A DNA stretch of 26,824 nucleotides from the NCBI GenBank assembly GCA_038046605.1, contig JBBSVW010000002.1, positions 1 through 26,824 of the forward strand, given 5' to 3'. This stretch comes from Candidatus Micrarchaeota archaeon (GTDB lineage Archaea > Micrarchaeota > Micrarchaeia > Norongarragalinales > SBBD01). A model generated the notes under the pieces. The model was not told the origin of the DNA and did no database searches. It saw only the letters and a list, made by a program, of their open reading frames with translations. The position numbers and the translations under genes were made by a program. Below, in pieces: positions 246 to 20,289 of the stretch; positions within the stretch are counted from its first letter, which is position 1, and each line of letters begins with the position of its first letter.

Positions 246-1037
246 ATGGCTAAAAAGTTCGCCCTGGTGCTGGCGCTTATTTTGTTTTTCCAAATCGCTA
301 GTGCAGCCTACACCTCATATGTCGATGTTAGGGAGTACATCCCAAATGAATTCAAGTACATTCCAAGGGAGGCAGTTAAGCCACAAGTTAAGCCCCAAAC
401 AAAGCCGCAGGCTAAACCGGATGGCGGAACACAAACAAATCCGGGTGGTGGAGGGGCAACCAAGCCAGGATCAAATCCGGCGGTTAAACCCGGAAGCACC
501 AATGGAAATTCGGATAATGAGGCGGGGGGAATGGCAACAGTTCAGTCAGGCAAAAATATTGATTATTTATCCCCCCTCAATTGCGCAAATGCGGTAAGCA
601 CATCTGATTGCAATGCGATCAAGTCAAGCCTTCGCACCTATTCGGAGAAAAATTTCCCGTATATCTGCAAAAACACATTTACCCCGGAAAAATGGGCATT
701 GGTTTTGTATTGGCAATTATATGCCGAAAGCACCTTCAACAGGTACGCATATCCATCAGGCAGCTCAGCTAGGGGGATATGCCAATTTTTGAGGGAGACA
801 GCCTTAGAATATCACTTATACGACCCCATGGATGATGCAGAATGCATAAGGGCAATGTCGGAATACATGAGGGACCTTGCCCAAAAGCCACAAACCAAAT
901 GTGATCTTGACCTTACAGTAGCTGCTTACCACGTCGGACCAAATGGGGATATTCGAAGGGGCGAAATTTCAGCAAAAGGCCAACAATATGTGAACAAGAT
1001 TTTGCCACAGGTCGAATCCACAATTTCCAACGCCTAG
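246..1037 (+). CDS. Secreted SLT-domain (lysozyme-like) lytic transglycosylase homolog
   Basis: Sec signal peptide MAKKFALVLALILFFQIASA, then a KPQ/G-rich linker. SLT motifs follow: AESTFN (catalytic Glu-Ser), ARGICQFLRETA (cf. A.GLMQ.MP.TA), DPMD..CI..M.EY and AAYHVG (cf. AAYNAG). Confidence 0.8.
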   Translation: MAKKFALVLALILFFQIASAAYTSYVDVREYIPNEFKYIPREAVKPQVKPQTKPQAKPDGGTQTNPGGGGATKPGSNPAVKPGSTNGNSDNEAGGMATVQSGKNIDYLSPLNCANAVSTSDCNAIKSSLRTYSEKNFPYICKNTFTPEKWALVLYWQLYAESTFNRYAYPSGSSARGICQFLRETALEYHLYDPMDDAECIRAMSEYMRDLAQKPQTKCDLDLTVAAYHVGPNGDIRRGEISAKGQQYVNKILPQVESTISNA

Positions 1038-6880: not shown

Positions 6881-6898
6881 CCCCCTTGGGTTGGTCAT
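6881..6898 (+). repeat. 18-bp exact repeat CCCCCTTGGGTTGGTCAT (other copy at 2941-2958)
   Basis: Direct comparison shows an identical 18-mer in two intergenic regions 3.9 kb apart. Confidence 0.85.
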
Positions 6899-6986
6899 TA
6901 AAAGTTTATGTTGCATAGTATTGCAATATTCAGGTCAGCGGAAATTTCATGTTTACGCTTCTTCTTATGAAGAGCGAGGTGGTTTA

Positions 6987-7211
6987 ATGGTAGAGGTTGG
7001 AAGTGGAATGGTCGCGCTTGGCGCCGCCATTGCAATTGGTGCCAGCGCGCTAGGAACAGCCCTTGCACAAAAATCAATCGGATCCGCAGGGATTGGGCTC
7101 ATGGCGGAAAAGGAAGGCCAGTTCAATAACGTTTTGATCTTCCTTGCGCTGCCCGAGACTATCGTGATCCTTGGCTTCGTCGTGGCATTCCTTATGCTTA
7201 ACAAGGTCTAG
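6987..7211 (+). CDS. atpK: A-type ATP synthase subunit K (c, proteolipid), single hairpin, 74 aa
   Basis: Two TM helices, AQKSIG and LPETIVILGF (ion-binding Glu). Shine-Dalgarno GAGGTGG at 6976-6982 supports ATG 6987. Confidence 0.93.
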   Translation: MVEVGSGMVALGAAIAIGASALGTALAQKSIGSAGIGLMAEKEGQFNNVLIFLALPETIVILGFVVAFLMLNKV

Positions 7212-7223
7212 GTGCGCGACGTT

Positions 7224-7790
7224 ATGAGTCTAGAAGCGCTGCGGCAGGAGCTTAGGAAGAAAAGCGCCACGGAGGCGGCGGGGATCGAATCCGTTGGAAA
7301 AGCGGAAGCTAGGAAAATCCGTGATGAAGCCAAAAAGGATGTGGATTTACGCCTTGAGAAGGCGCAGGAGGAAGCTTTGGCAAGCGTTGAAATGGAAAAG
7401 ATGCGGATACCAGCCGCTAGGCTAAAAGGCAGGCGCATCATCCAAGACGCAAAATACGAAATGGTCAAGGAATCGCTTAAGGAGCTTTCAAAACTGCTTG
7501 AAAAAAAAGCGCTTGGCAGGAAGGAATACGAAAGAATGCTTATTGGCCTTATAGAGGAGGGGATGAAGGCGCTTGGGATAAAGGAGGCGCTCATTTCCGT
7601 TCGCAAGCAGGATGCGCCAATCGCCAAAAAATACGGGAAGGTCAGGGAGATCGATTGCATCGGGGGCGCAATCATCGCCTCGCCGGATGGCAGGATGCGC
7701 ATTGATAGCACATTCGAGGCCCTAATTGAAAAAAGGAGGGGGGAGCTCGAGCAAAAGGCATTCGAGCTGATGTTCTCCAAAGAGAAATGA
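7224..7790 (+). CDS. atpE: A-type ATP synthase subunit E
   Basis: N-terminal coiled coil, C-terminal IDCIGGAIIASPDGRMRIDSTFEALI motif, and position after subunit K. Confidence 0.9.
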   Translation: MSLEALRQELRKKSATEAAGIESVGKAEARKIRDEAKKDVDLRLEKAQEEALASVEMEKMRIPAARLKGRRIIQDAKYEMVKESLKELSKLLEKKALGRKEYERMLIGLIEEGMKALGIKEALISVRKQDAPIAKKYGKVREIDCIGGAIIASPDGRMRIDSTFEALIEKRRGELEQKAFELMFSKEK

Positions 7791-7918
7791 ATTGCAGGCC
7801 AGGGGGAAAGCAGCGGTTTTATGATGTTAGCACATATGGCATAAATAAACCAAAAAGGCGGATGCGCCAATGGTAATTTCCAAACATCCCAAATGCGGTT
7901 CGCAAGCCAAAAACCCTT

Positions 7919-8012
7919 TATAGCGGTTAAGTAAAATAATGGAACAATCAAATATGACCGCTATATTAGAATAAGGCAACAAAAAGTTCCAATAATTGCC
8001 TTATTCGCTATA
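7919..8012. repeat. 94-bp element with nested, mutually exclusive inverted repeats in the atpE-atpC spacer
   Basis: Outer inverted repeat 7919-7945/7986-8012 (21/27 ungapped matches). Inner perfect inverted repeats 7919-7927/7957-7965 (9 bp) and 7969-7979/7996-8006 (11 bp). Confidence 0.75.
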
Positions 8013-9599: not shown

Positions 9600-10706
9600 A
9601 TGCGCAAATTAGCCCCGGCATTTCTGATTGTTTTTTCCATTTTCGCCCTCATTGCAAGCGCGCAGGATTCACCCCCATCCCTGCCCGCCGGATCATTCAA
9701 TTTGCAGCTGCGGGTCCTTGATTCGGACACCTCAAATCCGCTTATTGCGCACGTTGCTAGCCTTCTTTTCACCGGCGATAGCGGCGAAATCCGCAGTGTA
9801 CAGCTTATTTCCGATGCCGGCTACGTATCCCTTCCCCTTGAAAACGGCAATTGGCGCCTAATTGCGCTCATCGATAGGCAAGAAACGCAGGGGAACGATT
9901 ATTTCGGAATGCAAAGTTTCGAGCTAAAGCGCGATTCGAACCTCACGCTTTACATGATGCCGGCAGCTAGCATCGCCGGAAAAGTACTATTTGAGAACAA
10001 GAGCGTTTCAGGAGCGCGCATTTCCCTTAGGTGCGCATCCGAATTTTATGAGATGGGCAAATTCTATGAGAATGTAAAAAGCGATGAGTTCGGCTCATTT
10101 GCAATGCAAAGCGCCCCTGCTGGGAATTGTGAGATATTCGCAAGCGCAAGCGGCAAAATTGGAAGCACGCAAATCAGCATCACCAGGGGCGAATACAAAA
10201 GCATCCAAATAATCCTTGATTCCCAGCTTCAGGATGATGGAACGAATTTCAACTGGTTAATCCTGGTTGGCGCCCTAATCATCCTAATTGTAGCCATCAA
10301 CAAGATCATTAAAAGATGGATGGGAAAAAATGATGGCGCCGCAGGCATAGCGGATAGGGCTGATTCGAAAGCAAAGGATGCCATAAATGCCCACGCCGTA
10401 AAACCAAAGGCAGGAAAGCGAAGTGGAAAACAATCCAACAATGGAAACGATGATGAGGGAAAGCTGAAGGTTTCCTCCAAAATGAAGGCAATCATTCAAA
10501 CGCTAAACGAAAATGAGAAGAGGATTGTAGACCACCTGCTTGAAAACAATGGCAGGAGCAGGCAGAATAAAATTTATTATGCGCTCCTTATTCCAAAAGT
10601 GACGCTCTCCCGCACTGTGTTTTCGCTGGAGAACAAGAACATCATCAAAACAAGGAGGCTGGGGAAGGTAAAGGAAATTGAACTAAGCGAATGGTTCAGG
10701 AATTAG
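9600..10706 (+). CDS. Membrane-anchored winged-HTH protein with extracellular carboxypeptidase-regulatory-like beta-sandwich domains (COG2512-like)
   Basis: Signal peptide, two beta-rich domains (e.g. IAGKV....SVSGARISL; KSDEFGSF), TM WLILVGALIILIVAI, Lys-rich linker, and C-terminal wHTH LNENEKRIVDHLLENNG...IPKVTLSRTVFSLENKNII. Confidence 0.75.
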   Translation: MRKLAPAFLIVFSIFALIASAQDSPPSLPAGSFNLQLRVLDSDTSNPLIAHVASLLFTGDSGEIRSVQLISDAGYVSLPLENGNWRLIALIDRQETQGNDYFGMQSFELKRDSNLTLYMMPAASIAGKVLFENKSVSGARISLRCASEFYEMGKFYENVKSDEFGSFAMQSAPAGNCEIFASASGKIGSTQISITRGEYKSIQIILDSQLQDDGTNFNWLILVGALIILIVAINKIIKRWMGKNDGAAGIADRADSKAKDAINAHAVKPKAGKRSGKQSNNGNDDEGKLKVSSKMKAIIQTLNENEKRIVDHLLENNGRSRQNKIYYALLIPKVTLSRTVFSLENKNIIKTRRLGKVKEIELSEWFRN

Positions 10707-11044
10707 GTGTGCGATGGATGCGGGTGCTTGAACTTTACCGAAATTTCATCTGGCGCCTTTAACGAAACGATAGCCATGTCGCCCGGATGGATTATATCGG
10801 AAAATTCCTTTGGGAATCGCACATACGGGGATTCTTTTATTTCTCCGACCTTCACCTGCATCCCGTGCCTTAGCTTATTTAATTTGAGGTACCTTTGCGC
10901 ATCGAGTGGATGCAATGCCTCTTCCTTGCAATTTCCGCACCTCCAGCCCCGCATTTTCACTCCCTCCCTGAAAGTAATAATCGCGGGCTTCATCCAGCTG
11001 TTGCACTTATAGCACTGCAGTGTCGAATTCTCAAGATCCTTCAT
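10703..11044 (-). CDS. Putative antitoxin: YgiT/MqsA-type Zn ribbon fused to an AbrB/MazE-like DNA-binding domain
   Basis: CYKC...CGNCKEE zinc ribbon, then KVGEIKESPYVRFPKEFSDIIHPGD (AbrB-like). Start set at ATG 11044 after a GGGAGA Shine-Dalgarno site, overlapping the 3' end of the upstream gene. Confidence 0.65.
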   Translation of the reverse strand: MKDLENSTLQCYKCNSWMKPAIITFREGVKMRGWRCGNCKEEALHPLDAQRYLKLNKLRHGMQVKVGEIKESPYVRFPKEFSDIIHPGDMAIVSLKAPDEISVKFKHPHPSHT

Positions 11045-11339
11045 TTCTAAATCTCCCGTACTTAAATGTTTCAATTGAAACGTGGATTAATACATAGACT
11101 TCCTCAAGGCTCCCCTCAGGCTGCCTGTCAAGTTTTTCAGCCACGACCACTCGCAATACCTTCGAATCACGCTTGAGGCATCTTTCTATGATTTCCGCTT
11201 TCCTCTTGCTTGCCGAACATTCGAACCCAAATTCCAAAACTTCAATTACATCCTCTAATTCCAATAGATGATCCCCCAATTCCCTAAACGCGGAGTTAGT
11301 TATGACAATCCGCTTTCCTTGGTATAATGGGTAAAGCAT
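11031..11339 (-). CDS. DUF4258/RelE-BrnT-like small protein, putative toxin
   Basis: 102 aa with the pattern IVITNSAFREL.....LEDVIEVLEFG...KVLRVVV...YVLIHV, coupled to the downstream Zn-ribbon gene. Confidence 0.55.
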   Translation of the reverse strand: MLYPLYQGKRIVITNSAFRELGDHLLELEDVIEVLEFGFECSASKRKAEIIERCLKRDSKVLRVVVAEKLDRQPEGSLEEVYVLIHVSIETFKYGRFRNEGS

Positions 11340-11354
11340 GTTTATTCAGTTCTT

Positions 11355-11387
11355 TACCATAATAATGGTATATACTTTAGGTATATA
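11355..11387. promoter_or_regulatory. Two overlapping palindromes over the promoter of the TA-like pair (candidate operators)
   Basis: TACCAT-N4-ATGGTA (11355-11370) and TATATAC-N5-GTATATA (11369-11387), 16-48 nt upstream of ATG 11339 and overlapping TATA-like sequence. Confidence 0.6.
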
Positions 11388-12025
11388 ATTATTTGCATAC
11401 CAGCCTAAAGTGAAAGTTAGTAGCGTCTCCGGGGGTTAATTAGGATTGGGTAGAAAAAATGTAAACTTCCGGTTGATTTTCAACGCCGGGATTTCGGGTT
11501 ATTTCAGGCTCCAGCTCTTTTCAACAACGCAAACAGCGGGAAGACCCCAAACCGTAATCCTTTGCTGCCGGTGCCTGCCGGTTCCAGGGATTACATAAGG
11601 GCCCATCATTTTCCTGAAAAGGCATGTTAATTTCTCCCCTTCAATCTTGCTCATTTTATCCGGTGGAAAAAAGTTGCTTCCACACTTAAGCAGGCGCTTA
11701 ATTAATCCTTAATGGGGCGCAATTAGGGCTTATTTGACGAAATGGAGCAAAATTCAGGCGATTTCGGCACAATGGAAATGCTAATATACCACCGAATCAT
11801 CCAATAAGTCAAATGGAACGATATCCCACCAAATCGTTCCGCCCAAGTAATATATATCAAAAATTGCGTAAGGATAGTCCGCAGGCTTGCTAACCAAGGG
11901 TTTGCCAAAAAAAATAAAGTTTGGCGGATCAGAAAAGGCATGCCGGTAAAAAAAACCGCGCGGATAAAAATATTTTATAAAATAAAATATTTGCTTAAAA
12001 AAAATAAACAGTTTGGGTGAAACCT

Positions 12026-14749
12026 ATGAACAAATGGTTTGCAGTTTTTGCTTTCGCGCTTTTTGCGCTTTTTATTGCTCCAGATGCGCTTGCCGCAACG
12101 GGCCCTAGTTCCGCATCAGGCGGGGGGGTAAATGCAAAGGTTGATGAACAAACGGGAGTAACGGAGCCCGCGGTTGCGCAGCTTCTGGTCAATCCGAATA
12201 AATATTTCTCACTGCAGTTCCAGCAGGGCTGGAACCTGTTCTCCGTACCCGTGCATACGCCATATATGGGCAGCGCCGCGTTCGCAACAGTACTCAAGAC
12301 GGACTGCACCGAAAGGGCATTCTATTACTACGATTCGAATTCCAAGACTTACATCAAGGAAGGCACTTTGGCAGCGGGCGCCTCGCTTGGCGCGACAAAA
12401 GGGTATTGGTACAAATCCGATGGCAGCTGCACGGTTTCAATTTACGGAAGTGAAATCCTAGAACCGGTCGAGCGTTTGCTATCTGCAGGCTGGAACCAGA
12501 TTGGAGCGCCCTACAAGGCCGTTTCTTTCGAGGAAATTAAAGGCACCTGCGAGGTGATTTCGGGGCCTTACAAATTCAACACAAATGCCTACCAGTGGGA
12601 AAAGGCCAAATTGCTCTCCCCCGGTGAAGGGTATTTCGTCAAGGCAAAGGACAGCTGCATCATCGGAAGCGGAGGGCCGCCCAAGCCGCCGGACACATCA
12701 CCGGTTCCTACAATAATAATCGATAATTGGCCCGACCTTGGGATAAAGGATCTGGAATTCATTCCAGCCAATCCGGCAGCAGGCGAGAACTTCGCGGTTT
12801 ATGCGATAATTTACAACTACGGTTCGGCCGGCGGCTACCTGGATAGCAGCAGCATCTCATTTTCAGTTGTGGGCGTTGTAAACACCGGTGCGGCTGGGAG
12901 CGGCGCCGGAAGCGCGTCGGAAAGCGGTAGCGGCATCTACATCGCGCCAGGCGGGTATTATAAGCTCAAATTTTCCCAGGCACTTTACACTTCCGGATTA
13001 TACGAAGCAAGGGTAAAGGTTCAAGGCAGAAACGACTACAATAGAGGAAACGACGAGTATTTCGAATACTTCACTATTGGTGGAGGAAGGCCTACGAGCA
13101 CACCAAGAGGCTTTGACCCGGTTGCGCAGGATATAACATTCTCAAATAATTATCCCGCTGCGGGCTATTCGGTCGATGTGGCCGGCGTCATTTACAACCG
13201 CGGCCCTGAAGGCGGTTACTTGAACTCAATAAACCTTGATTTCAGTGGAGGCGGGGAAGGCGTGAACGTTGGTGGAGGCACCGGCGCTTCGGTTGGGGGG
13301 AGCATCTACCTCGCGCCCGGCAGTTATTATTATTTAAAAGGCACTAACACATTCCCAACAGGTGGCTGGTGGGCCGGAACCCTCAAATTCTCCGCGTCCG
13401 GGGATGCCGACACTTCCAACAACTATTATGCGGAGAAAATTTATGTGAAGCCCGCCTCAACCCCCACCGCTACGGCAACTCCCGATTGCACATATTCCGG
13501 GGACGGCACCTATTCGATAAAGCCGGGCTGCACAATCAAAGCCAATGACGGATCCAAAGTCATGCTAAAGGAAGTAAGCCAATACGAGGTTGCAGACGCG
13601 GCGCTGAAAAATTACCTTGTGGCGAATTTCCAACTAACGGATTCGTCGGGCACGATAGTGCAATACAATTATTACCTATCTGATGGATCGGATGCATACC
13701 CGTTCGGCGAGGGCAAACTCTACCTGAAAGTCGAGGGAATCAGCACACTTTTGTCGTATCCGGTGCAATACGTCGTCAAGGTCACGGTAAGATCCGGCGG
13801 CACGCCTACGAGCACTCCGGGGGGGTTTGATCTTGGAGTGCAGGATTTGGTGTTCTCAAACTCAAATCCAAAAGTGGGCGAAAGCTTCACAATAACCGCA
13901 ATGCTCTACAATTATGGGGACGTCGGCGGCTACCTGAAATCCCACAGCATCAGCTTCGAGAGCGGTTCTGGAGGCGTAGGCAGCGCAGTCCCAGGGCCGT
14001 CAAGTGCGATTTACATCGGACCGAAGCAATATTACAAATTGCAATTCTCGCAGTCACTATACACGGAAGGCAACTGGAAGGTTACGGTAGGCATAACCCC
14101 TTCGGAAGACATAAACCCGGCGAACGATAAGCTTAGTGAAACGATTTATGTCGGAGGTGCAACCCCTACGGTGACGGCAATTCCTGGAAAGCCAGACCTC
14201 ACAATCGGCACAACTGGTACCAAGGATAATCTGGTCGGAAGCATTGCAAAGCTGCCGTTTACGGTTTATAATTATGGCAGCGCCAAATCCCCCGCAACGA
14301 CCGTTCTGGTGACCGGCGACATCCTCTCGCAGTCTTTTGCGGTTCCGGAATTGCTTCCGGGCGATAGTTATTGGGATACGCTCAGCTTCGCCATCACCGA
14401 CAAGCCGCTTATCGCACTGACTTTGATGGTGGACCCGTACAACTACATTTCCGAGAGCGAGGAAACGAACAACAAGTTTTCTTACACGATCTATCCGGTT
14501 GCATCCAGCACCCCCACTCCGGAGGCAAACATCATCCTGCACAGAACAGTACGCGACTGCAACACGGATAAGCAGGTAGGCCTAGAGCAGGTGTTCGAGG
14601 TGGGAGGCAGCACTGGATACACAAATTATAAATGCACCAGCAGGAAGGCGGAACAGTGCAACTTCGCTGACCCGTATGCTTCGTATTACGATGAGGTGTG
14701 CGAATACCCTTCCAGCATCGGCGGAGGCGGAGGTTCGGGAGGGCCGTGA
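12026..14749 (+). CDS. Large secreted modular surface protein A: signal peptide, GWN-repeat module X, four CARDB-like Ig domains, module Y, C-terminal 4-Cys module Z
   Basis: Shine-Dalgarno GGGTGA at 12015-12020; signal peptide; CARDB-type motifs (PDL...V.N.G...VDP.N.I.ES.E.NN); Pro/Thr linkers; no C-terminal TM. Confidence 0.8.
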   Translation: MNKWFAVFAFALFALFIAPDALAATGPSSASGGGVNAKVDEQTGVTEPAVAQLLVNPNKYFSLQFQQGWNLFSVPVHTPYMGSAAFATVLKTDCTERAFYYYDSNSKTYIKEGTLAAGASLGATKGYWYKSDGSCTVSIYGSEILEPVERLLSAGWNQIGAPYKAVSFEEIKGTCEVISGPYKFNTNAYQWEKAKLLSPGEGYFVKAKDSCIIGSGGPPKPPDTSPVPTIIIDNWPDLGIKDLEFIPANPAAGENFAVYAIIYNYGSAGGYLDSSSISFSVVGVVNTGAAGSGAGSASESGSGIYIAPGGYYKLKFSQALYTSGLYEARVKVQGRNDYNRGNDEYFEYFTIGGGRPTSTPRGFDPVAQDITFSNNYPAAGYSVDVAGVIYNRGPEGGYLNSINLDFSGGGEGVNVGGGTGASVGGSIYLAPGSYYYLKGTNTFPTGGWWAGTLKFSASGDADTSNNYYAEKIYVKPASTPTATATPDCTYSGDGTYSIKPGCTIKANDGSKVMLKEVSQYEVADAALKNYLVANFQLTDSSGTIVQYNYYLSDGSDAYPFGEGKLYLKVEGISTLLSYPVQYVVKVTVRSGGTPTSTPGGFDLGVQDLVFSNSNPKVGESFTITAMLYNYGDVGGYLKSHSISFESGSGGVGSAVPGPSSAIYIGPKQYYKLQFSQSLYTEGNWKVTVGITPSEDINPANDKLSETIYVGGATPTVTAIPGKPDLTIGTTGTKDNLVGSIAKLPFTVYNYGSAKSPATTVLVTGDILSQSFAVPELLPGDSYWDTLSFAITDKPLIALTLMVDPYNYISESEETNNKFSYTIYPVASSTPTPEANIILHRTVRDCNTDKQVGLEQVFEVGGSTGYTNYKCTSRKAEQCNFADPYASYYDEVCEYPSSIGGGGGSGGP

Positions 14750-14778
14750 TTCTCTAAAATAAAAAAGAGGCAATGAAG

Positions 14779-17754
14779 ATGAACGAAACGAAAATCATGC
14801 TAGGGCTTTTACTGTTGCTTGCAGCATTAGCGCCCTTTGTTGCTGCTGCTGAAAGTTCGGATGGCAGCAAAACGGGAATAACCGAACCCGTCGGCTTACC
14901 AAACCCATTTACATACCACAATTTCAATCTAGAGAAGGGCTGGAACCTCATATCCATGCCTATTCATTATCCTGTTGATAATTTTGGCTATGTGGAAATC
15001 CAAGGCACAAATTGCGCAAAAAAATCATTTTACTACTATGAGCCCTCAACACGCAATTATATTGCGGATGCAACGCTTGCAAAAGGCGAAAAGGTCATGT
15101 CCGGCAGGGGCTATTGGATAAAGGCGGATTTCAAATGCAGTTTCCAGGTGCTTGGAAGGGAAGCTGTTGATGCAGCAGATTTTAATGGCTATTTCCAGGC
15201 GGGCTGGAATCAGGTTGGCGCTCCTTTCAGGGCGCTTAGGTTTAGCAGCATTGCGGGCAATTGCAAAGTGGTTAGCGGCCCATATTATTTCAACACTAAT
15301 GCATACAAATGGGAAAAAAGCGATTTTTTAGAAAGCTCAAAGGGCTATTTTATCAAGGTGGCAGAGTATTGCCAGATTGGAAACCAGCCTCCAAGGCCGC
15401 CTGAAGTAACGCCAATCCCAACATCCACAGTTAGCCCGGGAAATGTTGTCGAAATCGAGGAATTCACCGATTTCCAGTGCCCATTCTGCCAGCGCTCGCA
15501 AGAAACCCTAACACGGATTGAAAAGGAATATGGCAGCAATGTCAAAATCATAACCAAGAACTTCCCATTAAGCCAGATTCATCCCTTCGCGTGGAAAGCA
15601 GCGGAAGCATATGAATGCGTAGGCAAATACGGAGGGGAAGGGGCTGCCAAAAAATACAAAGCAACTCTGTTTAGCAACCAAGAATTCTTGGATGTGCCAA
15701 ACCTCAAGAAATATGCCTACAACATGGGCATAGATAAAACATCATTCGACAAGTGCCTTGATAGCGACATGATGAAAGGCTCGGTGCAGGCAGATTACGA
15801 TGAGGGAGTCAAGAGGGGCGTTACGGGCACACCCACATTCTTCATCATGAGGGATAAGGTGGTCGTAGGCGCGCAGCCATTTGCGGTATTCAAGGAAATA
15901 CTTGATTACTACCTTGCTGTTGCCACATTCCAGCCGACACTGAAGCCGGAAAACTATGTGGATTTGGGCGTTGCGGATATTGAGGTATTGCCCAACTATC
16001 CAAAAGCCGGCGAGAGCTTCACAGCATATGCAACTGTAAGGAATTACGGGACTGCCGGCGGCTACATAGACAGCCACCAGATCTCATTCGAAACCGGCTC
16101 TGGTAAAATAGCTGCCTCGGAAAGCCCGGGCATTGCAGTGACAAGCGCGTACATAGCGCCAGGCGGGTATTACAAATTGAAGTTCACGCAGACGTTATAC
16201 GATGTTGCCACCTATCAGGTGAAGGTAAGCGTCAAGAATAAGAATGATTACAACACCGCAAACAATGAATATTCCGAGTACTTCACGGTAGGCGGGGCAA
16301 CGCCCACAGCAACAAGCGTCCCACTGCTGCCAGATCTTACATTAAGCGTTCCATCGCCCTTTACGCCAACTGCAAACACATATGTTAAGCTACCATTTGA
16401 TGTGATCAACAAGGGAGCAGCTAAATCGCCCTATACTACGGTCTCGGTAATCGGCGTAGGCCCAGTCCAGACAATATCAATACCGCCAATTGAACCCGGG
16501 CAGTCATATTCAACAAGCGTTACCTCATGGGTTCCGGATATCACATTCGCCTTGACTTTCAGGGCGGACATGTACAATTACGTCCATGAGAGCAATGAGG
16601 CAAACAACGAATATGTTTTGAAGATGACGCCCAATGTTCCAACACCCACTCCAATACCAACTGCAACAACCATGCCCACTTGCACCTATTATGGCGATGG
16701 GACATTCAGCGCGGTTGCAGCCGGATGCACGATCATAACCAATGAGGATTTCTATGTAAAGCTCGTTGACACGGCTTACGCCCCGGCAAGGGCACAATTT
16801 GATATCTCAACCAAATACGGATTTCTCCTGAAGAGGGTATATCTTTTAGTTGGCGAAAGCTCAATAATCAGCGAAGCGAACAATTTGCAGCTTTCGGTTT
16901 ATTCCATAGTTGACGAAAAAATTTACCCGGTAAGGACAATAGTTCAGGTAAATGTCAAATCCGGCGCGACGCCAACACCCACCGTTGCCCCAACAGCAAC
17001 AGCCGTTCCTGCAAAACCGGACCTTGCGTTGATAACTACGGGCACGTCTGAAAACAGGGTAGGAAAAATTGCCGATATTCCTTTAGTGGTCACGAATTTT
17101 GGCAACGCGGTCTCTCCAGCTACAACGGTCAAATTCACAGGCCATATGTCCGGCTCAAGGACAGTTCCCTCTTTAGCTCCGGGGGCAAGCCACCAAATAA
17201 TTATTTCAGTGGTTGTTGTTGACCAAGCATCAATGCAATTTACCTGGAAGGTGGATCCAGACAACCTGATTGCCGAATCCAGCGAAGGCAATAACGAGCT
17301 ATCATACGCAATTTTGCCAATTTTAGCCTCGTTTATCCCGCTGGAATATGACCTGGTTATACGGCCCGACCATTCCGCATCACCTACGGAAATCCGGCTC
17401 TTCAACCCAGATGACAGATGGAGGTTCAAGGGCGGGCAATACGGGGATTTTGTATCAATTACAGGCATGGAGGACTCGACAAATTACGACAAGGACTTCA
17501 ACGACCTTGCCTTTGATTATACAAGATCCGGGAATACAATAAAAATCAAAATCACGGGCTGCAACTCAGCTGCAAAGAATAAAATCTGGGTGAAAATGAA
17601 GCCGAATGAGGGCTATAAGCGCCTTTCAATTGAGGAGACCGGCTGGTTTTCAGAAGGCGACCAGGGCAATTCAGTTGTCGAACTGTTCAGCCAGTGCCAG
17701 GGAAACGTAGGCGTCACTAGGACGCTTGTGATCGATACGCCGCTGGCAGCTTGA
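14779..17754 (+). CDS. Large secreted modular surface protein B: signal peptide, module X, DsbA/thioredoxin-like domain, three CARDB-like domains, module Y, C-terminal DUF4114-like domain
   Basis: EFTDFQCPFC, FPLSQIHP.A.KAAEA and GVTGTPTF (DsbA); CARDB motifs; GMEDSTNYDKDFNDLAF. Start is ATG 14779 or 14773. Confidence 0.82.
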   Translation: MNETKIMLGLLLLLAALAPFVAAAESSDGSKTGITEPVGLPNPFTYHNFNLEKGWNLISMPIHYPVDNFGYVEIQGTNCAKKSFYYYEPSTRNYIADATLAKGEKVMSGRGYWIKADFKCSFQVLGREAVDAADFNGYFQAGWNQVGAPFRALRFSSIAGNCKVVSGPYYFNTNAYKWEKSDFLESSKGYFIKVAEYCQIGNQPPRPPEVTPIPTSTVSPGNVVEIEEFTDFQCPFCQRSQETLTRIEKEYGSNVKIITKNFPLSQIHPFAWKAAEAYECVGKYGGEGAAKKYKATLFSNQEFLDVPNLKKYAYNMGIDKTSFDKCLDSDMMKGSVQADYDEGVKRGVTGTPTFFIMRDKVVVGAQPFAVFKEILDYYLAVATFQPTLKPENYVDLGVADIEVLPNYPKAGESFTAYATVRNYGTAGGYIDSHQISFETGSGKIAASESPGIAVTSAYIAPGGYYKLKFTQTLYDVATYQVKVSVKNKNDYNTANNEYSEYFTVGGATPTATSVPLLPDLTLSVPSPFTPTANTYVKLPFDVINKGAAKSPYTTVSVIGVGPVQTISIPPIEPGQSYSTSVTSWVPDITFALTFRADMYNYVHESNEANNEYVLKMTPNVPTPTPIPTATTMPTCTYYGDGTFSAVAAGCTIITNEDFYVKLVDTAYAPARAQFDISTKYGFLLKRVYLLVGESSIISEANNLQLSVYSIVDEKIYPVRTIVQVNVKSGATPTPTVAPTATAVPAKPDLALITTGTSENRVGKIADIPLVVTNFGNAVSPATTVKFTGHMSGSRTVPSLAPGASHQIIISVVVVDQASMQFTWKVDPDNLIAESSEGNNELSYAILPILASFIPLEYDLVIRPDHSASPTEIRLFNPDDRWRFKGGQYGDFVSITGMEDSTNYDKDFNDLAFDYTRSGNTIKIKITGCNSAAKNKIWVKMKPNEGYKRLSIEETGWFSEGDQGNSVVELFSQCQGNVGVTRTLVIDTPLAA

Positions 17755-17833
17755 TTTGGCAAAGGAAGGTTAGGAATGAAGCCGGTATAAGGGTTTGACC
17801 CATTTCAAGCCCATCCGCGCATTGGTGAGAGAC

Positions 17834-19747
17834 ATGAACGAAACAAAAATAATGCTAGGAATTTTGCTGTTGCTTTTGGCAATGGTATTTGCAGCCGATC
17901 CAGTTGTGACCGGAAGCGGAGGAGGATCTAGTTTAGGTGCCGTTCCAACCTATAAGGTATATTCCGGAGGGGGATCATATGCTCTTGGAATTGGCGAAAG
18001 CGTAAATACTGGAAATGGCTACCTAATAAAATTGACAGGGATGAGCTCGATTTGGGATTCGGCGCTCTATGCCGTATTCGATGTTTATGAGGCGGGGACA
18101 TACAACACTGAACGCTCAAAGGTCAGCTATGGCGATACGCTGGTGCTGGCTGATGGCAAAATCAAGCTGAAACTCGAAGGCGTTAGCGTATCATCCGATA
18201 TTTCAAAGGCAAAAGTTACGCTTAGGCTTGAGGAGGCAACTTCTGGGAGCGGAATTGGTGGCGGCTCAAGTGGCTCATCTTCAGGCTCATGGGCAATAGG
18301 TGGAGGCGGCACCCCAACATCCACAGCTTCAGGAGGATCTGGCAGCGGGAGTTCGGGAAACAGCGTGCCAACCTCAACTGGTTCTGGAAGCGGATATGGG
18401 AGCGCTTCAACCAAGCCATCCTCAGGCGGAGGAACAGGATCTGGGCAAACAAACCCATCATCTGGTTCATCCGGAGGGGCAGGAGGAATAGCAATTGCAA
18501 TTAGGCCAATCATGGTCACTGTCGAGCCGGGAGAATTGCCCCCATCCCCTCCAAGCGAGGATTTACCAATTGAGGGGGCAAAATACACAATTGATTTGAG
18601 GTCTGGATGGAACCTGATTTCTTTCCCGTACTTTTATCAATACGATTACCAGTGCAGGGGTGAGATTTGCCCCGCGCAGGCGGAGGAAGGGGTCGAAATG
18701 CCGCTCCTCTACAGGCCGCCGGCATTGAAAATTATCGAGAACACTTGCGATTCCTCAACACTTTGGCACTACAACGGCTACTCGAAGGCATACGATAAGT
18801 ACGAAATGGATTCATTTGCGCCAGTTTCAGAATTGAATGGCTTTTGGATGAAAGCGGGAAGCAATTGCAGGATCACAATTGCGGGAAATAACGAGCTCAA
18901 TTGGCAGGGGATGGAACTTGTAGCCGGCTGGAACCACCTTGGAGGCCCATCAAAAAATACGCTTTTTGAAAAGATGAAAGGCTCATGCGATGTATCGTCC
19001 GGACCTTGGAAATACAATGCGGCTGCTAACAAGTATGAAAAAGTGGAGGTGCTAAAGCCCGGCGAGGGGTATTTTGTCAAGGTGTCTGGAAATTGCAACC
19101 TTGGGGCATATACTGATGATGATTTCCCGCCATTGCCGGATGACGAAACTATAGTTACACCAGCTCCTACATCAACATGGGTGCCAACATACATTCCAAC
19201 ATCAACGCCAAAGGTATATCCCGTAAGGCCAACCAAAATACTTAATAAGGAAACCATAGTGCTCTCAAAGGGGGAGACGAAAACTGTTTTTGGAACGGCA
19301 ATTACTCTTGAGGAGATTGGAAGCGGTTGGGTGCAAATAAAGCCGGTCCTTGGGAACGTGCGCACTAACGATAATCCAGGGATGAAGCCAGAGGGCATAC
19401 CATGGGTTTATTCCGGAAATTCCGTGAAAATCAATTTGAATGAGGAGGCCGCCCTGGTTGAGCTGTACGATATCTTCAAGCCAACCCAGATTAGCGATAA
19501 CCAGGCGACAATAGATGTTTATTTCAAGGCAAGCTCGGTTGCAAAAATAGTTTTGCATCGGACGATGCGCAAATGCTCGGATGGATCGCCCATACTTGAT
19601 GAATACGGAAGGGCTGAGCAGATGTTCACAGTTGGCGATAGCTCTGGATATTGGAATTACGATTGCGGCAGCAGGAACCAGGAGCAGTGCATTGAGGATG
19701 GCTCCTTTGACCAGTATTATGATGAGTGGTGCGAATCAGTAAATTAA
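17834..19747 (+). CDS. Secreted modular surface protein C: signal peptide, Y-like module, Gly/Ser linker, module X, beta-domain, module Z
   Basis: Shine-Dalgarno GGTGAG at 17824-17829; signal peptide MNETKIMLGILLLLL; GWNL/GWNH module; LHRTMRKC...YYDEWCE module shared with protein A. Confidence 0.8.
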   Translation: MNETKIMLGILLLLLAMVFAADPVVTGSGGGSSLGAVPTYKVYSGGGSYALGIGESVNTGNGYLIKLTGMSSIWDSALYAVFDVYEAGTYNTERSKVSYGDTLVLADGKIKLKLEGVSVSSDISKAKVTLRLEEATSGSGIGGGSSGSSSGSWAIGGGGTPTSTASGGSGSGSSGNSVPTSTGSGSGYGSASTKPSSGGGTGSGQTNPSSGSSGGAGGIAIAIRPIMVTVEPGELPPSPPSEDLPIEGAKYTIDLRSGWNLISFPYFYQYDYQCRGEICPAQAEEGVEMPLLYRPPALKIIENTCDSSTLWHYNGYSKAYDKYEMDSFAPVSELNGFWMKAGSNCRITIAGNNELNWQGMELVAGWNHLGGPSKNTLFEKMKGSCDVSSGPWKYNAAANKYEKVEVLKPGEGYFVKVSGNCNLGAYTDDDFPPLPDDETIVTPAPTSTWVPTYIPTSTPKVYPVRPTKILNKETIVLSKGETKTVFGTAITLEEIGSGWVQIKPVLGNVRTNDNPGMKPEGIPWVYSGNSVKINLNEEAALVELYDIFKPTQISDNQATIDVYFKASSVAKIVLHRTMRKCSDGSPILDEYGRAEQMFTVGDSSGYWNYDCGSRNQEQCIEDGSFDQYYDEWCESVN

Positions 19748-19821
19748 TTAAGCGAGGAATGGTTTTGTTAGTTGAGCGTTGAAGAAAAAAAGTAAAATGC
19801 ATTTTGAAAGTGAAATAACCT

Positions 19822-20289
19822 ATGAAAGCATTGTTCCTAGCCGTTTTCGCAATTCTTCTTTTAGGATGCACGCAGCCAAACCCTCCGGGCGTATGCACTT
19901 TGGATGCAATGATCTGCCCAGATGGGAGCGCTGTTGGCAGGGTTGCGCCTTCATGCGAATTTGCGCCTTGCCCAAGCGCATCCCCTACAATTGCGCCAAC
20001 TGATGTTCCAGATGACATACCTCCCCTACCGGATGGGGACACATTTTCGGAGTGCAAAGTTGATAGCGATTGCGCTATTGGTGGGTGCAATAGCGAAATT
20101 TGCACAACTCCCCAAAAGGCTAAGGACGTTGCTTCAATTTGCGTTTACAAGCCCGAATTTGCCTGCTACAAGCAGATAGGCTGCGGCTGCATCTCTGGGG
20201 TTTGCGCCTGGGAGGAAACGCCGGAGTTCAGATTGTGCGTTCAGGGAGCAAAGCAGGGAGGAAGCGATTTGCCGCCGTTACCCCAATAA
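19822..20289 (+). CDS. Cys-rich lipoprotein-like protein D: 4-Cys CTxDAxxCPDG module plus eight-cysteine-cluster-like domain
   Basis: Lipobox-like LLLG-C; CTLDAMICPDGSAVGRVAPSCEFAPCP; C..DSDC..GGC..EIC...C...PE..C...C.C..G.C.W; PPLP motif twice. Confidence 0.8.
   Translation: MKALFLAVFAILLLGCTQPNPPGVCTLDAMICPDGSAVGRVAPSCEFAPCPSASPTIAPTDVPDDIPPLPDGDTFSECKVDSDCAIGGCNSEICTTPQKAKDVASICVYKPEFACYKQIGCGCISGVCAWEETPEFRLCVQGAKQGGSDLPPLPQ

What the first reader, a model, noticed from the sequence alone, without database searches (positions are those of the whole stretch)
12026..20289. Four-gene mix-and-match surface-protein system built from a shared set of modules
Seen: co-oriented genes with 29-79 nt gaps. 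A = SP-X-C1-C1-Y-C1-C2-Z. B = SP-X-DsbA-C1-C2-Y-C2-DUF4114-like. C = SP-Y-GS linker-X-beta domain-Z. D = Cys-rich lipoprotein. Every large protein has exactly one X, modules are joined by Pro/Thr linkers, and none of A-C has a C-terminal TM or sorting tail; only D has a lipobox-like anchor. Established: CARDB domains are Ig-like folds of cell-surface proteins, and DPANN cells depend on host attachment. Inference: an undescribed multi-subunit, disulfide-stabilised adhesion or scaffold complex, diversified by domain shuffling, tethered through D or through X, and carrying its own oxidase.
Basis: partly seen in the sequence, partly recalled or inferred. Interest (0 to 1): 0.8.

Follow-up and report, generated by a model that had tools for sequence, protein, structure and literature searches.

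The report
Modular surface-protein locus of Micrarchaeota
A small groundwater archaeon keeps, at one fixed spot in its chromosome, a set of exported proteins rebuilt from the same few building blocks, all sharing an unnamed but very widespread domain that probably holds them at the cell surface.

Summary
The organism is a Micrarchaeota archaeon, probably of the order Norongarragalinales.

The locus sits at the same place in same-genus genomes, between a transmembrane wHTH gene and a DHH gene. The number of genes and the domain order differ from genome to genome.

The shared module X is a tandem duplication of an ~80-residue beta-sandwich with no Pfam or PDB match. It is not lineage-specific: a profile finds 14,564 protein clusters in archaea and bacteria. 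It lies at the C-terminal end in 116 of 159 proteins examined. A PPxP motif follows it in 108 of 141. It is attached to unrelated cargo, including minimal DsbA-X proteins.

D is a lipobox protein with a known but uncharacterised eight-cysteine domain (TIGR04289) and two acidic PPLP motifs of the kind that follows X. D lies next to X genes in the family, and its eight-cysteine domain is fused to X in two genomes.

Best reading (about 0.45): X is a cell-surface retention handle, B is a retained DsbA oxidase, and D is the candidate membrane partner. Complex formation, binding and co-transcription remain untested.

The parts
12026..14749 (+). Gene A, 907 aa: Sec-type signal peptide, X, PPKPPD, C1, C1, Y, C1, C2 (CARDB), Z, Gly-rich tail
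   Evidence: identical to stored protein P0001
12185..12724 (+). X domain of A, followed by PPKPPD at 12677-12694
   Evidence: profile match E 6.8e-97; motif coordinates; AF2 model pLDDT 93.3
12725..13456 (+). Two C1 modules of A (divergent CARDB-like Ig domains)
   Evidence: 34-51% to the other C1 copies; CARDB 19.9 bits for the first copy, below the cut-off of 22.7
13457..13816 (+). Y module of A (2 Cys)
   Evidence: AF2 model pLDDT 90.4; top Foldseek hit is S-layer DUF1608, 3u2g
13811..14161 (+). Third C1 module of A
14177..14506 (+). C2 module of A = CARDB (PF07705)
   Evidence: 76 bits against a cut-off of 22.7
14507..14746 (+). Z module of A (4-Cys, ILHRTxRDC...)
   Evidence: 47% identity to the Z of C; alignment A6; no Pfam match at E<=10
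14779..17754 (+). Gene B, 991 aa: signal peptide, X, PPRPPE, DsbA, C1, C2, Y, C2, DUF4114-like end
   Evidence: identical to P0026
14896..15435 (+). X domain of B, followed by PPRPPE at 15388-15405
15433..15927 (+). DsbA-like thioredoxin domain of B, with CPFC at 15478-15489
   Evidence: PF01323 72.3 bits against a cut-off of 25.6
15928..17322 (+). C1, C2, Y and C2 modules of B
   Evidence: (three CARDB stretches)
17308..17751 (+). C-terminal domain of B, weakly DUF4114-like; duplicated in relatives
   Evidence: PF13448 E 0.015, 16.7 bits, below the cut-off of 27
17834..19747 (+). Gene C, 637 aa: signal peptide, Y, Gly/Ser linker, X (6 Cys), DDDFPPLPD, beta domain, Z
   Evidence: identical to P0017
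17915..18244 (+). Y module of C (no Cys)
   Evidence: hhalign probability 99%, E 8e-18 against the A/B-type Y profile, using disjoint sequence sets
18560..19177 (+). X domain of C, with a Cys-containing insert, followed by the acidic PPLP motif at 19115-19141
19235..19564 (+). Beta-rich domain of C with no family; not Y-like
   Evidence: hhalign probability 4-12% against Y; no Pfam match
19550..19744 (+). Z module of C
19822..20289 (+). Gene D, 155 aa: lipobox LLLGC (19855-19869), 4-Cys mini-domain, PT linker, DDIPPLPD (20011-20034), eight-cysteine domain (about 20050-20211), C-terminal DLPPLPQ (20266-20286)
   Evidence: TIGR04289 51.6 bits against a cut-off of 50; alignment A3
9600..10706 (+). 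Conserved upstream neighbour: signal peptide, CarboxypepD_reg-like ectodomain, one TM, cytoplasmic DUF7343 winged-helix domain. Candidate regulator; this role is inferred
   Evidence: found directly upstream of the X cluster in G002, G003, G004, G005 and G008
11973..11992 (+). AT-rich TATA-like stretch about 35-50 nt upstream of the start of A, inside a 686-nt intergenic region
   Evidence: read from the sequence; no archaeal promoter tool was run

Best explanation
This is a conserved envelope-protein locus that evolves by domain shuffling, in a Micrarchaeota archaeon that is probably Norongarragalinales.

A, B and C are Sec-exported proteins without a membrane anchor. They are disulfide-containing mosaics of CARDB-type Ig domains, an S-layer-DUF1608-like beta-sandwich (Y), a 4-Cys module (Z) and exactly one X each.

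X, together with the proline motif that follows it, is the common handle. It is a two-lobed beta-sandwich whose most likely job is to hold cargo non-covalently at the producer's own cell surface. Under this reading:
- B is a DsbA oxidase kept at the surface, which forms disulfides in the Cys-rich envelope proteins.
- A and C are structural or adhesive stalks.
- D is a lipid-anchored eight-cysteine protein displaying two acidic PPLP motifs of the type that follows X. It is the best candidate for the membrane-side partner of X proteins.

Shown here: the modules, their homology, the family range of X, its end position, the PPxP coupling, the synteny, and the X-to-eight-Cys fusions.

Inferred: retention at the surface, X-D or X-PPLP binding, lipidation of D, and co-transcription.
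For: 1. Architecture and export signals.

2. X behaves as a general end module.
- The X profile finds 14,564 cluster representatives at E<=1e-3, and 257 at E<=1e-30.
- In 159 stored X proteins it is C-terminal in 116, N-terminal in 24 and internal in 19.

3. The cargo is unrelated.
- Of 78 X proteins scanned with Pfam, 16 had any family: DsbA, CARDB, Laminin_G_3, Kazal, beta-helix or dockerin. No listed Pfam match overlaps X.
- In 12 further proteins from other phyla the cargo is M6 and S8 peptidases, a glycosidase-like domain, a phosphoesterase and BNR repeats.

4. DsbA-X fusions occur in 11 of 159 proteins, in both orders. Two of them are minimal, with DsbA and X only (P0076, 350 aa; P0131, 364 aa). 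A housekeeping oxidase fused only to X argues for retention at the producer's own surface.

5. A PPxP-type motif lies within 20 aa after the last Cys of X in 108 of 141 proteins, against 14 of 1802 background windows. Of the 74 X domains that end a protein, 60 have it. Some relatives end instead in a short amphipathic tail.

6. The acidic PPLP motif is rare in this genome: 10 hits in 1.29 million six-frame ORF residues, 3 of them in C and D. It is conserved in D homologues while the linkers vary.

7. D-like genes lie downstream of X genes on the same strand in G000, G003, G005, G007 and G008. X and the eight-Cys domain share one ORF in G010 and G011, and in G011 the context is different.

8. 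The slot is conserved: ATPase genes, DUF7343 gene, X cluster, D, DHH.

9. By my count from the table, tandem X genes occur in 11 of the 28 X-bearing genomes.
Against: - There is no direct evidence of binding, of a complex, or of co-transcription.
- D is missing from the locus in G004.
- With the D query, 8 of the 28 X-bearing genomes gave no D hit, and many D hits cover only the N-terminal 4-Cys mini-domain.
- In 80 X loci from other lineages, only three had a D-like neighbour or fusion, and all three are records already counted.
- Synteny among kin is not independent evidence.
- In A and B, X is N-terminal and followed by PPKPPD/PPRPPE, not PPLP.
- D and many X proteins share the same C-terminal motif. 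This fits 'both are clients of a third receptor' as well as 'D binds X'.
- The X fold gives only generic jelly-roll or cupin matches (best Z 5.2). These include sugar-binding and phage receptor-binding domains, so X could bind glycans or another cell instead.
- No DsbB or VKOR was found to reoxidise DsbA (the genome is 90.7% complete).
Confidence: 0.45

Rival explanations
1. There is no system. A, B and C are independent paralogous surface proteins or adhesins made by local duplication and domain shuffling at a recombination-prone slot. D is merely a syntenic neighbour. The PPxP stretch is a stiff linker or fold cap of X with no partner.
For: The gene number and module order in the slot differ in every same-genus genome. 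D is absent from the slot in G004. D-like neighbours were not seen outside the family and its near relatives. Strain-specific CARDB-fused surface proteins are already described in Micrarchaeota strain Mia14 (PMC5498576, passages read).
Against: A linker does not explain a conserved xPPLPE at the very C-terminus: 60 of the 74 X domains that end a protein have the motif. It also does not explain the same motif occurring twice in D, or the two X-to-eight-Cys fusions.
Confidence: 0.25
2. X is a glycan- or host-binding adhesion module, like a carbohydrate-binding module. The locus encodes adhesins for attachment to another cell or a surface, with X as the business end.
For: X is a beta-sandwich rich in conserved Trp and Tyr. 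Weak fold matches include sugar-binding HA70, CBM_E1 and phage receptor-binding heads (Z 3.9-4.8). In bacteria, X-like domains accompany secreted hydrolases.
Against: The fold matches are all in the generic range. Minimal DsbA-X proteins make little sense if X points away from the producer. The order is argued to be weakly host-dependent (PMC12892359).
Confidence: 0.15
3. The locus encodes the main surface layer of this lineage. The conserved C-type protein (Y-X-...-Z) forms the lattice, X or D anchors it, and A and B are accessory.
For: Neither S_layer_N (PF05123) nor S-layer (PF07752) was found in the genome (90.7% complete). The best Foldseek hit of Y is the Methanosarcina S-layer DUF1608 (3u2g, probability 1.0, TMq 0.51, E 0.043), and 3u2h scores Z 6.2. 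C-type orthologues are present in every same-genus slot examined.
Against: The fold match is weak and class II fusion-protein domains score as well or better (Z 7.8). None of the 24 Y copies matches an S-layer family by sequence. A-C almost lack N-glycosylation sequons (2 observed against 20.8 expected), unlike typical archaeal S-layer glycoproteins (general knowledge). There are no abundance data.
Confidence: 0.12

Closest known systems
Strain-specific secreted CARDB-fused surface proteins of Micrarchaeota strain Mia14 (Golyshina et al. 2017, PMC5498576; passages read)
   Same: Same phylum. Exported multidomain mosaics with CARDB modules, proposed to build a complex surface layer and mediate contacts.
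   Different: Those proteins combine CARDB with PKD and beta-propeller domains. X, Y, Z, a fused DsbA and a D-type lipoprotein are not mentioned in the passages I read.
Cell-surface retention modules and their anchors: SLH domains with cell-wall polymers, SlaA/SlaB of Sulfolobales, PGF-CTERM/archaeosortase lipid anchoring (recalled, not tested here)
   Same: A terminal module shared by unrelated exported proteins and used to keep them on the cell; a separate membrane-anchored partner in SlaB.
   Different: No sequence or fold relation to X was found. X has no TM tail or sortase-type signal. The ligand of X is unknown.
Anchored extracytoplasmic DsbA-family oxidoreductases (PF01323)
   Same: The DsbA domain of B passes the Pfam cut-off and has a CPFC active-site motif. 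Extracytoplasmic DsbA enzymes of organisms without a periplasm are usually tethered (general knowledge).
   Different: Here the tether would be X plus Ig-like spacers rather than a lipid or a TM helix. No DsbB or VKOR partner was found.
Eight-cysteine-cluster / Heavy_Cys_CGP proteins (TIGR04289, TIGR04292), including a secreted Thermococcus barophilus protein (PMC10667668; passages read)
   Same: Residues 77-130 of D meet the TIGR04289 cut-off. Members are exported Cys-rich proteins of unknown function.
   Different: D is far below the TIGR04292 equivalog cut-off (73 against 200 bits) and has no CGP-CTERM tail. It has a lipobox, a 4-Cys mini-domain and two acidic PPLP motifs instead.
Methanosarcina acetivorans S-layer protein MA0829, DUF1608 domain (PDB 3u2g, 3u2h)
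   Same: The Y model's top Foldseek hit (probability 1.0, TMq 0.51); Z 6.2 over 79 residues.
   Different: E is only 0.043 and identity 13-14%. There is no sequence-level match. Y is about half the size of DUF1608. Viral class II fusion-protein domain I scores as high.
T9SS cargo proteins of Ignavibacteria, Bacteroidota, Calditrichota and Chlorobi that carry an X-like domain
   Same: An X-like double beta-sandwich sits near the C-terminal end of secreted enzymes. It is followed by an LPPxPP motif (12 loci by my count) and then by the Por_Secre_tail sorting domain where Pfam was run.
   Different: In these proteins X is not the last domain, the proline motif lies about 45 residues downstream inside another region, and export and anchoring go through the type IX system, which archaea lack.

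Membership tests
CARDB (PF07705) | Match to the Pfam model above the gathering score | tested here: met
   A: 76 bits, residues 725-822. B: 117.5 bits in three stretches. Cut-off 22.7. For the C1 copies scanned alone: B 22.7 bits (at the cut-off), the first copy of A 19.9 bits (below), the other two no hit.
DSBA-like thioredoxin (PF01323) | Match above the gathering score, and a CxxC active-site motif | tested here: met
   B residues 228-377, 72.3 bits against 25.6. CPFC at residues 234-237 of the 991-aa protein. Catalytic activity was not tested.
Eight-cysteine-cluster domain (TIGR04289) | Match above the NCBIfam cut-off | tested here: met
   D residues 77-130, 51.6 bits against a cut-off of 50. 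This is marginal. It is consistent with Atlas leads to PF27854 Heavy_Cys_CGP (scores 0.82 and below).
CGP-CTERM-anchored Cys-rich protein (TIGR04292) | Equivalog score of at least 200 bits, and a CGP-CTERM tail | tested here: not met
   73.1 bits against 200. D ends in DLPPLPQ without a hydrophobic tail.
DUF4114 (PF13448) | Match above the gathering score | tested here: not met
   C-terminal domain of B: E 0.015, 16.7 bits against 27, and only 30 residues aligned.
Archaeal S-layer families S_layer_N (PF05123) and S-layer/DUF1608 (PF07752) | Sequence match to the family model | tested here: not met
   A-C had no match to either model at E<=0.1. There was no match anywhere in the genome. None of the 24 Y copies matched.
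Archaeal S-layer families S_layer_N (PF05123) and S-layer/DUF1608 (PF07752) | Shared fold with a solved S-layer domain | tested here: inconclusive
   Y against 3u2g: E 0.043, probability 1.0, TMq 0.51. Y against 3u2h: Z 6.2. Unrelated class II fusion proteins score Z 7.8.
Lipoprotein (lipobox) | A signal peptide ending in an L-x-[GAS]-C type lipobox, with the Cys conserved in homologues | tested here: met
   LLLGC at residues 12-16. All eight full-length D-like sequences aligned have [GS]C at this place. Lipidation itself is not testable with these tools.
Operon or multi-subunit complex | Co-transcription and physical association of the products | not testable with these tools
   No RNA holder was listed. 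The complex predictor was unavailable. The only indirect evidence is short gaps, SD-like GGTGA/GAGG before each start and conserved order.

The most novel reading that the evidence does not exclude
X and the acidic PPLP tail form a docking pair: the tail of one protein, or of D, inserts into or binds the X domain of another. The lipoprotein D, with its two PPLP motifs, would then nucleate and anchor a disulfide-stabilised protein scaffold that serves as the envelope layer in Micrarchaeota lacking the usual S-layer families. The same X-plus-proline-motif principle would be reused across many archaeal and bacterial phyla as an undescribed, general way of retaining proteins at the surface.
Probability: 0.15. 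Interest if true: 0.8.

Novelty: new variant of a known kind. Interest (0 to 1): 0.5.

Why it matters
How DPANN archaea keep exported proteins on the cell is largely unknown, because they lack most known anchoring signals. This locus points to a concrete, testable candidate: an unnamed two-lobed domain with a proline tail. That domain occurs in thousands of exported proteins of archaea and bacteria, is fused to enzymes that must stay cell-associated, and in this lineage is linked to a small lipoprotein carrying the same motif. Defining its ligand would annotate a very large dark family and explain how oxidative folding is organised outside these cells. The locus is also a clear natural example of rapid domain shuffling at a fixed chromosomal site.

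Tried and rejected
Binding is therefore untested.
- RNA evidence: no RNA holder was listed among 7 runs.
- Sequence search of PDB with profiles of X, Y and D: nothing significant (best E 0.075, none, and 0.31).
- Foldseek with the X model: no match at E<=1e-3.
- VIA wide search with the X model: best Z 5.2, generic jelly-roll, cupin and nucleoplasmin folds.
- Pfam on the single modules at E<=10: nothing for Z, the beta domain of C, D, or the Y of B and C.
- NCBIfam: nothing for A or C.
- The search for related loci with the 31-sequence X alignment failed because no stretch was conserved enough. I repeated it with the 3-sequence alignment.
- Is the beta domain of C a Y? Rejected: hhalign probability 4-12%.
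- S_layer_N, S-layer/DUF1608, VKOR and DsbB families in the genome: none found (the genome is 90.7% complete, so this is not proof of absence).
- Earlier findings of this scan: nothing by place or by sequence. One unrelated Micrarchaeota operon came up by words.
- Literature: no paper holds 'PPLP' + 'archaea' + 'S-layer', and 'DPANN' + 'CARDB' gave 2 papers. A description of X in print cannot be excluded, because a domain without a name cannot be searched by word.
- Sigma-70 promoter and hairpin-terminator scan: not informative for an archaeon.


Full report
OBSERVATION. The window holds four co-oriented ORFs at the stated place. Using the ATG starts that reproduce stored database proteins, A is 12026-14749 (907 aa, P0001), B is 14779-17754 (991 aa, P0026), C is 17834-19747 (637 aa, P0017) and D is 19822-20289 (155 aa). 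The gaps are 29, 79 and 74 nt.

- X occurs once in each of A, B and C (30-42% identity, E down to 1e-52).
- C1 occurs three times in A and once in B.
- CARDB-type C2 occurs once in A and twice in B.
- Y occurs in A and B.
- Z occurs at the ends of A and C.

The Y of C is not seen by BLAST. It is recovered by a profile comparison built from disjoint sets of sequences (hhalign probability 99%, E 8e-18). The 'beta domain' of C is not a Y.

Pfam confirms CARDB and a DsbA domain with CPFC. The C-terminal domain of B is only weakly DUF4114-like (16.7 bits against 27).

Each of A-C has a single N-terminal hydrophobic segment, Pro/Thr linkers and no C-terminal TM. D has LLLGC and 15 Cys. Contigs of a second sample cover the region at about 100% identity and bridge the A/B and C/D junctions, so the mosaic is not an assembly artefact.

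ORGANISM AND CONTEXT. The neighbours are archaeal: RFC small subunit, A/V-type ATPase subunits, a DHH/DHHA1 protein and an A24 prepilin peptidase. The genome held is 1.64 Mb in 106 contigs and 90.7% complete. Homologues carry Micrarchaeota titles, and a same-genus genome is titled Candidatus Norongarragalinales. The runs that hold the DNA are groundwater metagenomes. A 2025 paper argues that Norongarragalinales may depend little on hosts (PMC12892359, passages read).

THE SHARED MODULE X. X is a tandem duplication of an ~80-residue unit with the pattern GWN(L/Q)..P...C...Y.Y(D/N)...Y.K...G.GY(W/F)VK...C. The two halves match each other with hhalign probability 98.5%, E 1.8e-15.

With a 31-sequence alignment it folds confidently (pLDDT 93.3, pTM 0.86) into two small beta-sandwiches. 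No PDB sequence matches it. Foldseek finds nothing at E<=1e-3. The exhaustive structural search gives only generic jelly-roll, cupin and nucleoplasmin matches, best Z 5.2.

No Pfam or NCBIfam model touches X:
- in the window's own proteins;
- in 78 relatives;
- in 12 proteins from other phyla;
- in the Atlas's structural look-alikes, which were checked against Pfam 38.1.

Yet the family is huge. The profile finds 14,564 cluster representatives at E<=1e-3, 1,979 at E<=1e-10 and 257 at E<=1e-30. Record titles place relatives in:
- archaea: Micrarchaeota, Woesearchaeota, Nanoarchaeota, Iainarchaeum, Altiarchaeota, Methanoperedens, Thermoplasmata;
- bacteria: many Ignavibacteria, Bacteroidota, Calditrichaeota, Chlorobiaceae, Desulfatiglans, Verrucomicrobia and others.

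WHAT X LOOKS LIKE IT DOES. I examined 159 stored X proteins. These are the 16 hits plus the best 150, with overlaps, and they include the window's own three. X is at the C-terminal end in 116, near the N-terminus in 24 and internal in 19.

The cargo is unrelated from one protein to the next: DsbA, CARDB, Laminin_G_3, Kazal, beta-helix and dockerin (16 of 78 scanned had any family, 62 had none). In other phyla the cargo is M6 and S8 peptidases, a glycosidase-like domain, a metallophosphatase and BNR repeats.

Eleven of the 159 carry a DsbA domain: seven as X-DsbA and four as DsbA-X. Two of these are minimal proteins made of DsbA and X only. An oxidase that must act where the cell's own proteins emerge, and whose only other domain is X, is the strongest argument that X retains cargo on the producer.

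A second regularity is a proline motif.
- Within 20 residues after the last Cys of X, a PPxP-type motif occurs in 108 of the 141 proteins where the core end could be located, against 14 of 1802 background windows.
- The stricter [ILMFV]PP[LMFIVAS][PL] occurs in 53 of 141 against 3 of 1802.
- Of the 74 X domains that end a protein, 60 have the motif, typically as ...(D/E)(I/L)PPLPE-COOH.
- Caveat: the search profile contains these columns, which slightly favours such hits.
- Some relatives end instead in a short amphipathic tail.
- In FCB-group bacteria the X-like domain is followed about 45 residues later by (Y/F)ELPP(L/I/V)PPxGxFDxRF. In the three such proteins scanned with Pfam, the type IX sorting tail follows this motif.

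D AND ITS LINK TO X. D consists of a lipobox signal peptide, a 4-Cys mini-domain, a Pro/Thr linker, DDIPPLPD, an eight-cysteine domain that just passes TIGR04289 (51.6 against 50 bits; Atlas leads to PF27854), and a C-terminal DLPPLPQ.

The acidic PPLP motif is rare in this genome. It gives 10 hits in 1.29 million six-frame ORF residues, three of them in C and D, and D is the only ORF of at least 100 aa that ends in it. In D homologues the two motifs are conserved while the linkers vary. The D-like genes of G007 and G008 have lost the eight-Cys domain but keep the lipobox, the mini-domain and two or three PPLP motifs.

D-like genes lie directly downstream of X genes on the same strand in G000, G003, G005, G007 and G008. 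In G002 and G001, D lies next to the same DHH gene at a contig end. In G010 and G011, X and the eight-Cys domain are in a single ORF, and in G011 the context is different.

Evidence against the link:
- G004 has no D in the slot.
- Across 41 genomes of the order, X was found in 28 and D in 24: both in 20, X only in 8, D only in 4. Many of the D hits cover only the mini-domain.
- Among 80 X loci from other lineages, only three had a D-like neighbour or fusion, and all three are records already counted.

THE LOCUS AS A SHUFFLING SITE. In the five same-genus genomes where the slot was recovered (G001-G005), and in two further genera of the family, the gene order is: ATPase genes, a DUF7343 gene, the X cluster, D-like gene, DHH. 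No X gene was found in the sixth, G006. The content of the slot varies:
- G003: X-C1-C1-Y-(DUF4114-like)x2, then a C-type gene, then D.
- G002: X-DsbA-C1-C1-Y-(DUF4114-like)x2, then a C-type gene with two extra Y.
- G004: X-C2-C1-C1-Y-C1-DUF4114-like, then a C-type gene.
- G000 adds A.

By my count from the table, tandem X genes occur in 11 of the 28 X-bearing genomes. The upstream gene encodes a signal peptide, a CarboxypepD_reg-like ectodomain, one TM and a cytoplasmic DUF7343 winged helix. It is a plausible membrane-bound regulator, but this is inference.

An AT-rich TATA-like stretch precedes A. SD-like GGTGA or GAGG precedes each start. A T5 run follows D before the convergent DHH gene. 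These features are compatible with one transcription unit but do not show it.

THE OTHER MODULES. Y folds confidently (pLDDT 90.4). Its top Foldseek hit is the DUF1608 domain of the Methanosarcina S-layer protein (3u2g, E 0.043, probability 1.0, TMq 0.51). The exhaustive search ranks class II fusion-protein domain I and the CcmF periplasmic domain at Z 7.8 and 3u2h at Z 6.2. This is a fold-level resemblance only, with no sequence support.

Z is a 4-Cys module of about 60 residues with no family. The genome shows no S_layer_N, no PF07752, no VKOR and no DsbB. The S-layer protein described for Micrarchaeum harzensis has S_layer_N/TIGR01567-type domains (bioRxiv 10.1101/2021.04.28.441871, passages read) and is therefore a different kind of protein.

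MECHANISM. I commit to the following, at about 0.45.
- X with its proline tail is a non-covalent surface-retention handle.
- B is a retained DsbA oxidase serving the Cys-rich exported proteins.
- A and C are stalk-like structural or adhesive proteins.
- D is the lipid-anchored partner.

The step from 'shared motif, neighbourhood and fusions' to 'D binds X' is inference. An equally simple alternative is that D and the X proteins are both clients of an unknown receptor that reads the PPLP end.

The rivals are:
- independent paralogues with no system (0.25);
- X as a glycan- or host-binding adhesion module (0.15);
- the locus as the lineage's main surface layer (0.12).

NOVELTY. Mosaic CARDB surface proteins are known in Micrarchaeota (PMC5498576), and DsbA and the eight-Cys domain are known families. 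New here are four things:
- the recognition of X as a very large, unnamed, mostly terminal domain family coupled to a proline motif;
- its recurrent fusion with DsbA;
- its lineage-specific link to a PPLP-bearing lipoprotein;
- the fixed-site shuffling.

I rate this a new variant of a known kind, with interest 0.5. The boldest reading the evidence does not exclude is an X-PPLP docking system that builds a lipoprotein-anchored envelope scaffold (probability about 0.15).

LIMITS. There are no expression data, and no complex prediction could be run. Model coordinates could not be inspected for tail packing. Kin genomes are not independent evidence. Absence calls rest on a genome that is 90.7% complete.

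Noticed in passing
window 12026-19747 (A, B, C) and stored X-family proteins: N-glycosylation sequons (N-x-S/T) are almost absent. A-D have 2 observed against 20.8 expected from shuffles, and 0 of 2000 shuffles reach that low. In 156 other X-family proteins there are 406 observed against 948 expected, and 105 of the 156 have less than half the expected number. The genome has an STT3/AglB homologue at G000:C73:79095-80054. Cytoplasmic neighbours show about the expected numbers. I did not test whether this holds for all exported proteins of the organism.
   Followed up: partly
window 9600-10706 (+): A 368-aa protein with a signal peptide, a CarboxypepD_reg-like ectodomain, one TM helix and a cytoplasmic DUF7343 winged-helix domain. 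It is conserved directly upstream of the X cluster in G002, G003, G004, G005 and G008. It may be a transmembrane transcription regulator of the locus.
   Followed up: partly
loci L066, L076, L078, L083, L087, L088, L100, L104, L106, L111, L115, L119 (bacteria of the FCB group and others): The X-like domain is followed about 45 residues later by a conserved (Y/F)ELPP(L/I/V)PPxGxFDxRF motif in a region with no Pfam family. In the three of these proteins scanned with Pfam, the type IX sorting tail follows the motif. The coupling of X to a proline motif therefore crosses domains of life.
   Followed up: partly
G000 whole genome: There are several DsbA-like genes: the domain in B, plus C10:822-1274 and C9:4126-4566. 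No DsbB or VKOR was found. The reoxidation route of DsbA in this organism is unexplained.
   Followed up: partly
G000:C43:51128-53308: A 727-aa exported protein made of many short Cys-rich repeats (CK.Y.DG.C.IK.C.DG...), with one internal acidic PPLP motif, QDMPPLPED.
   Followed up: no
window 246-1037 (+): An archaeal ORF with a lytic transglycosylase SLT domain (PF01464, 27.2 bits against a cut-off of 21.3). This is unusual for an organism without peptidoglycan.
   Followed up: no
window 7208-7951 (-): The translation of this ORF is low-complexity, and it overlaps + strand ORFs at 6891-7211 and 7212-7790 that lie between the ATPase I and C subunit genes. It is probably a shadow ORF. Its 'conservation' in relatives would then reflect the + strand genes.
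   Followed up: no
window 11340-12025: An unusually long (686 nt), AT-rich (GC 0.41 for 11001-12000) non-coding stretch upstream of gene A. No RNA-family or archaeal promoter search was run on it.
   Followed up: no
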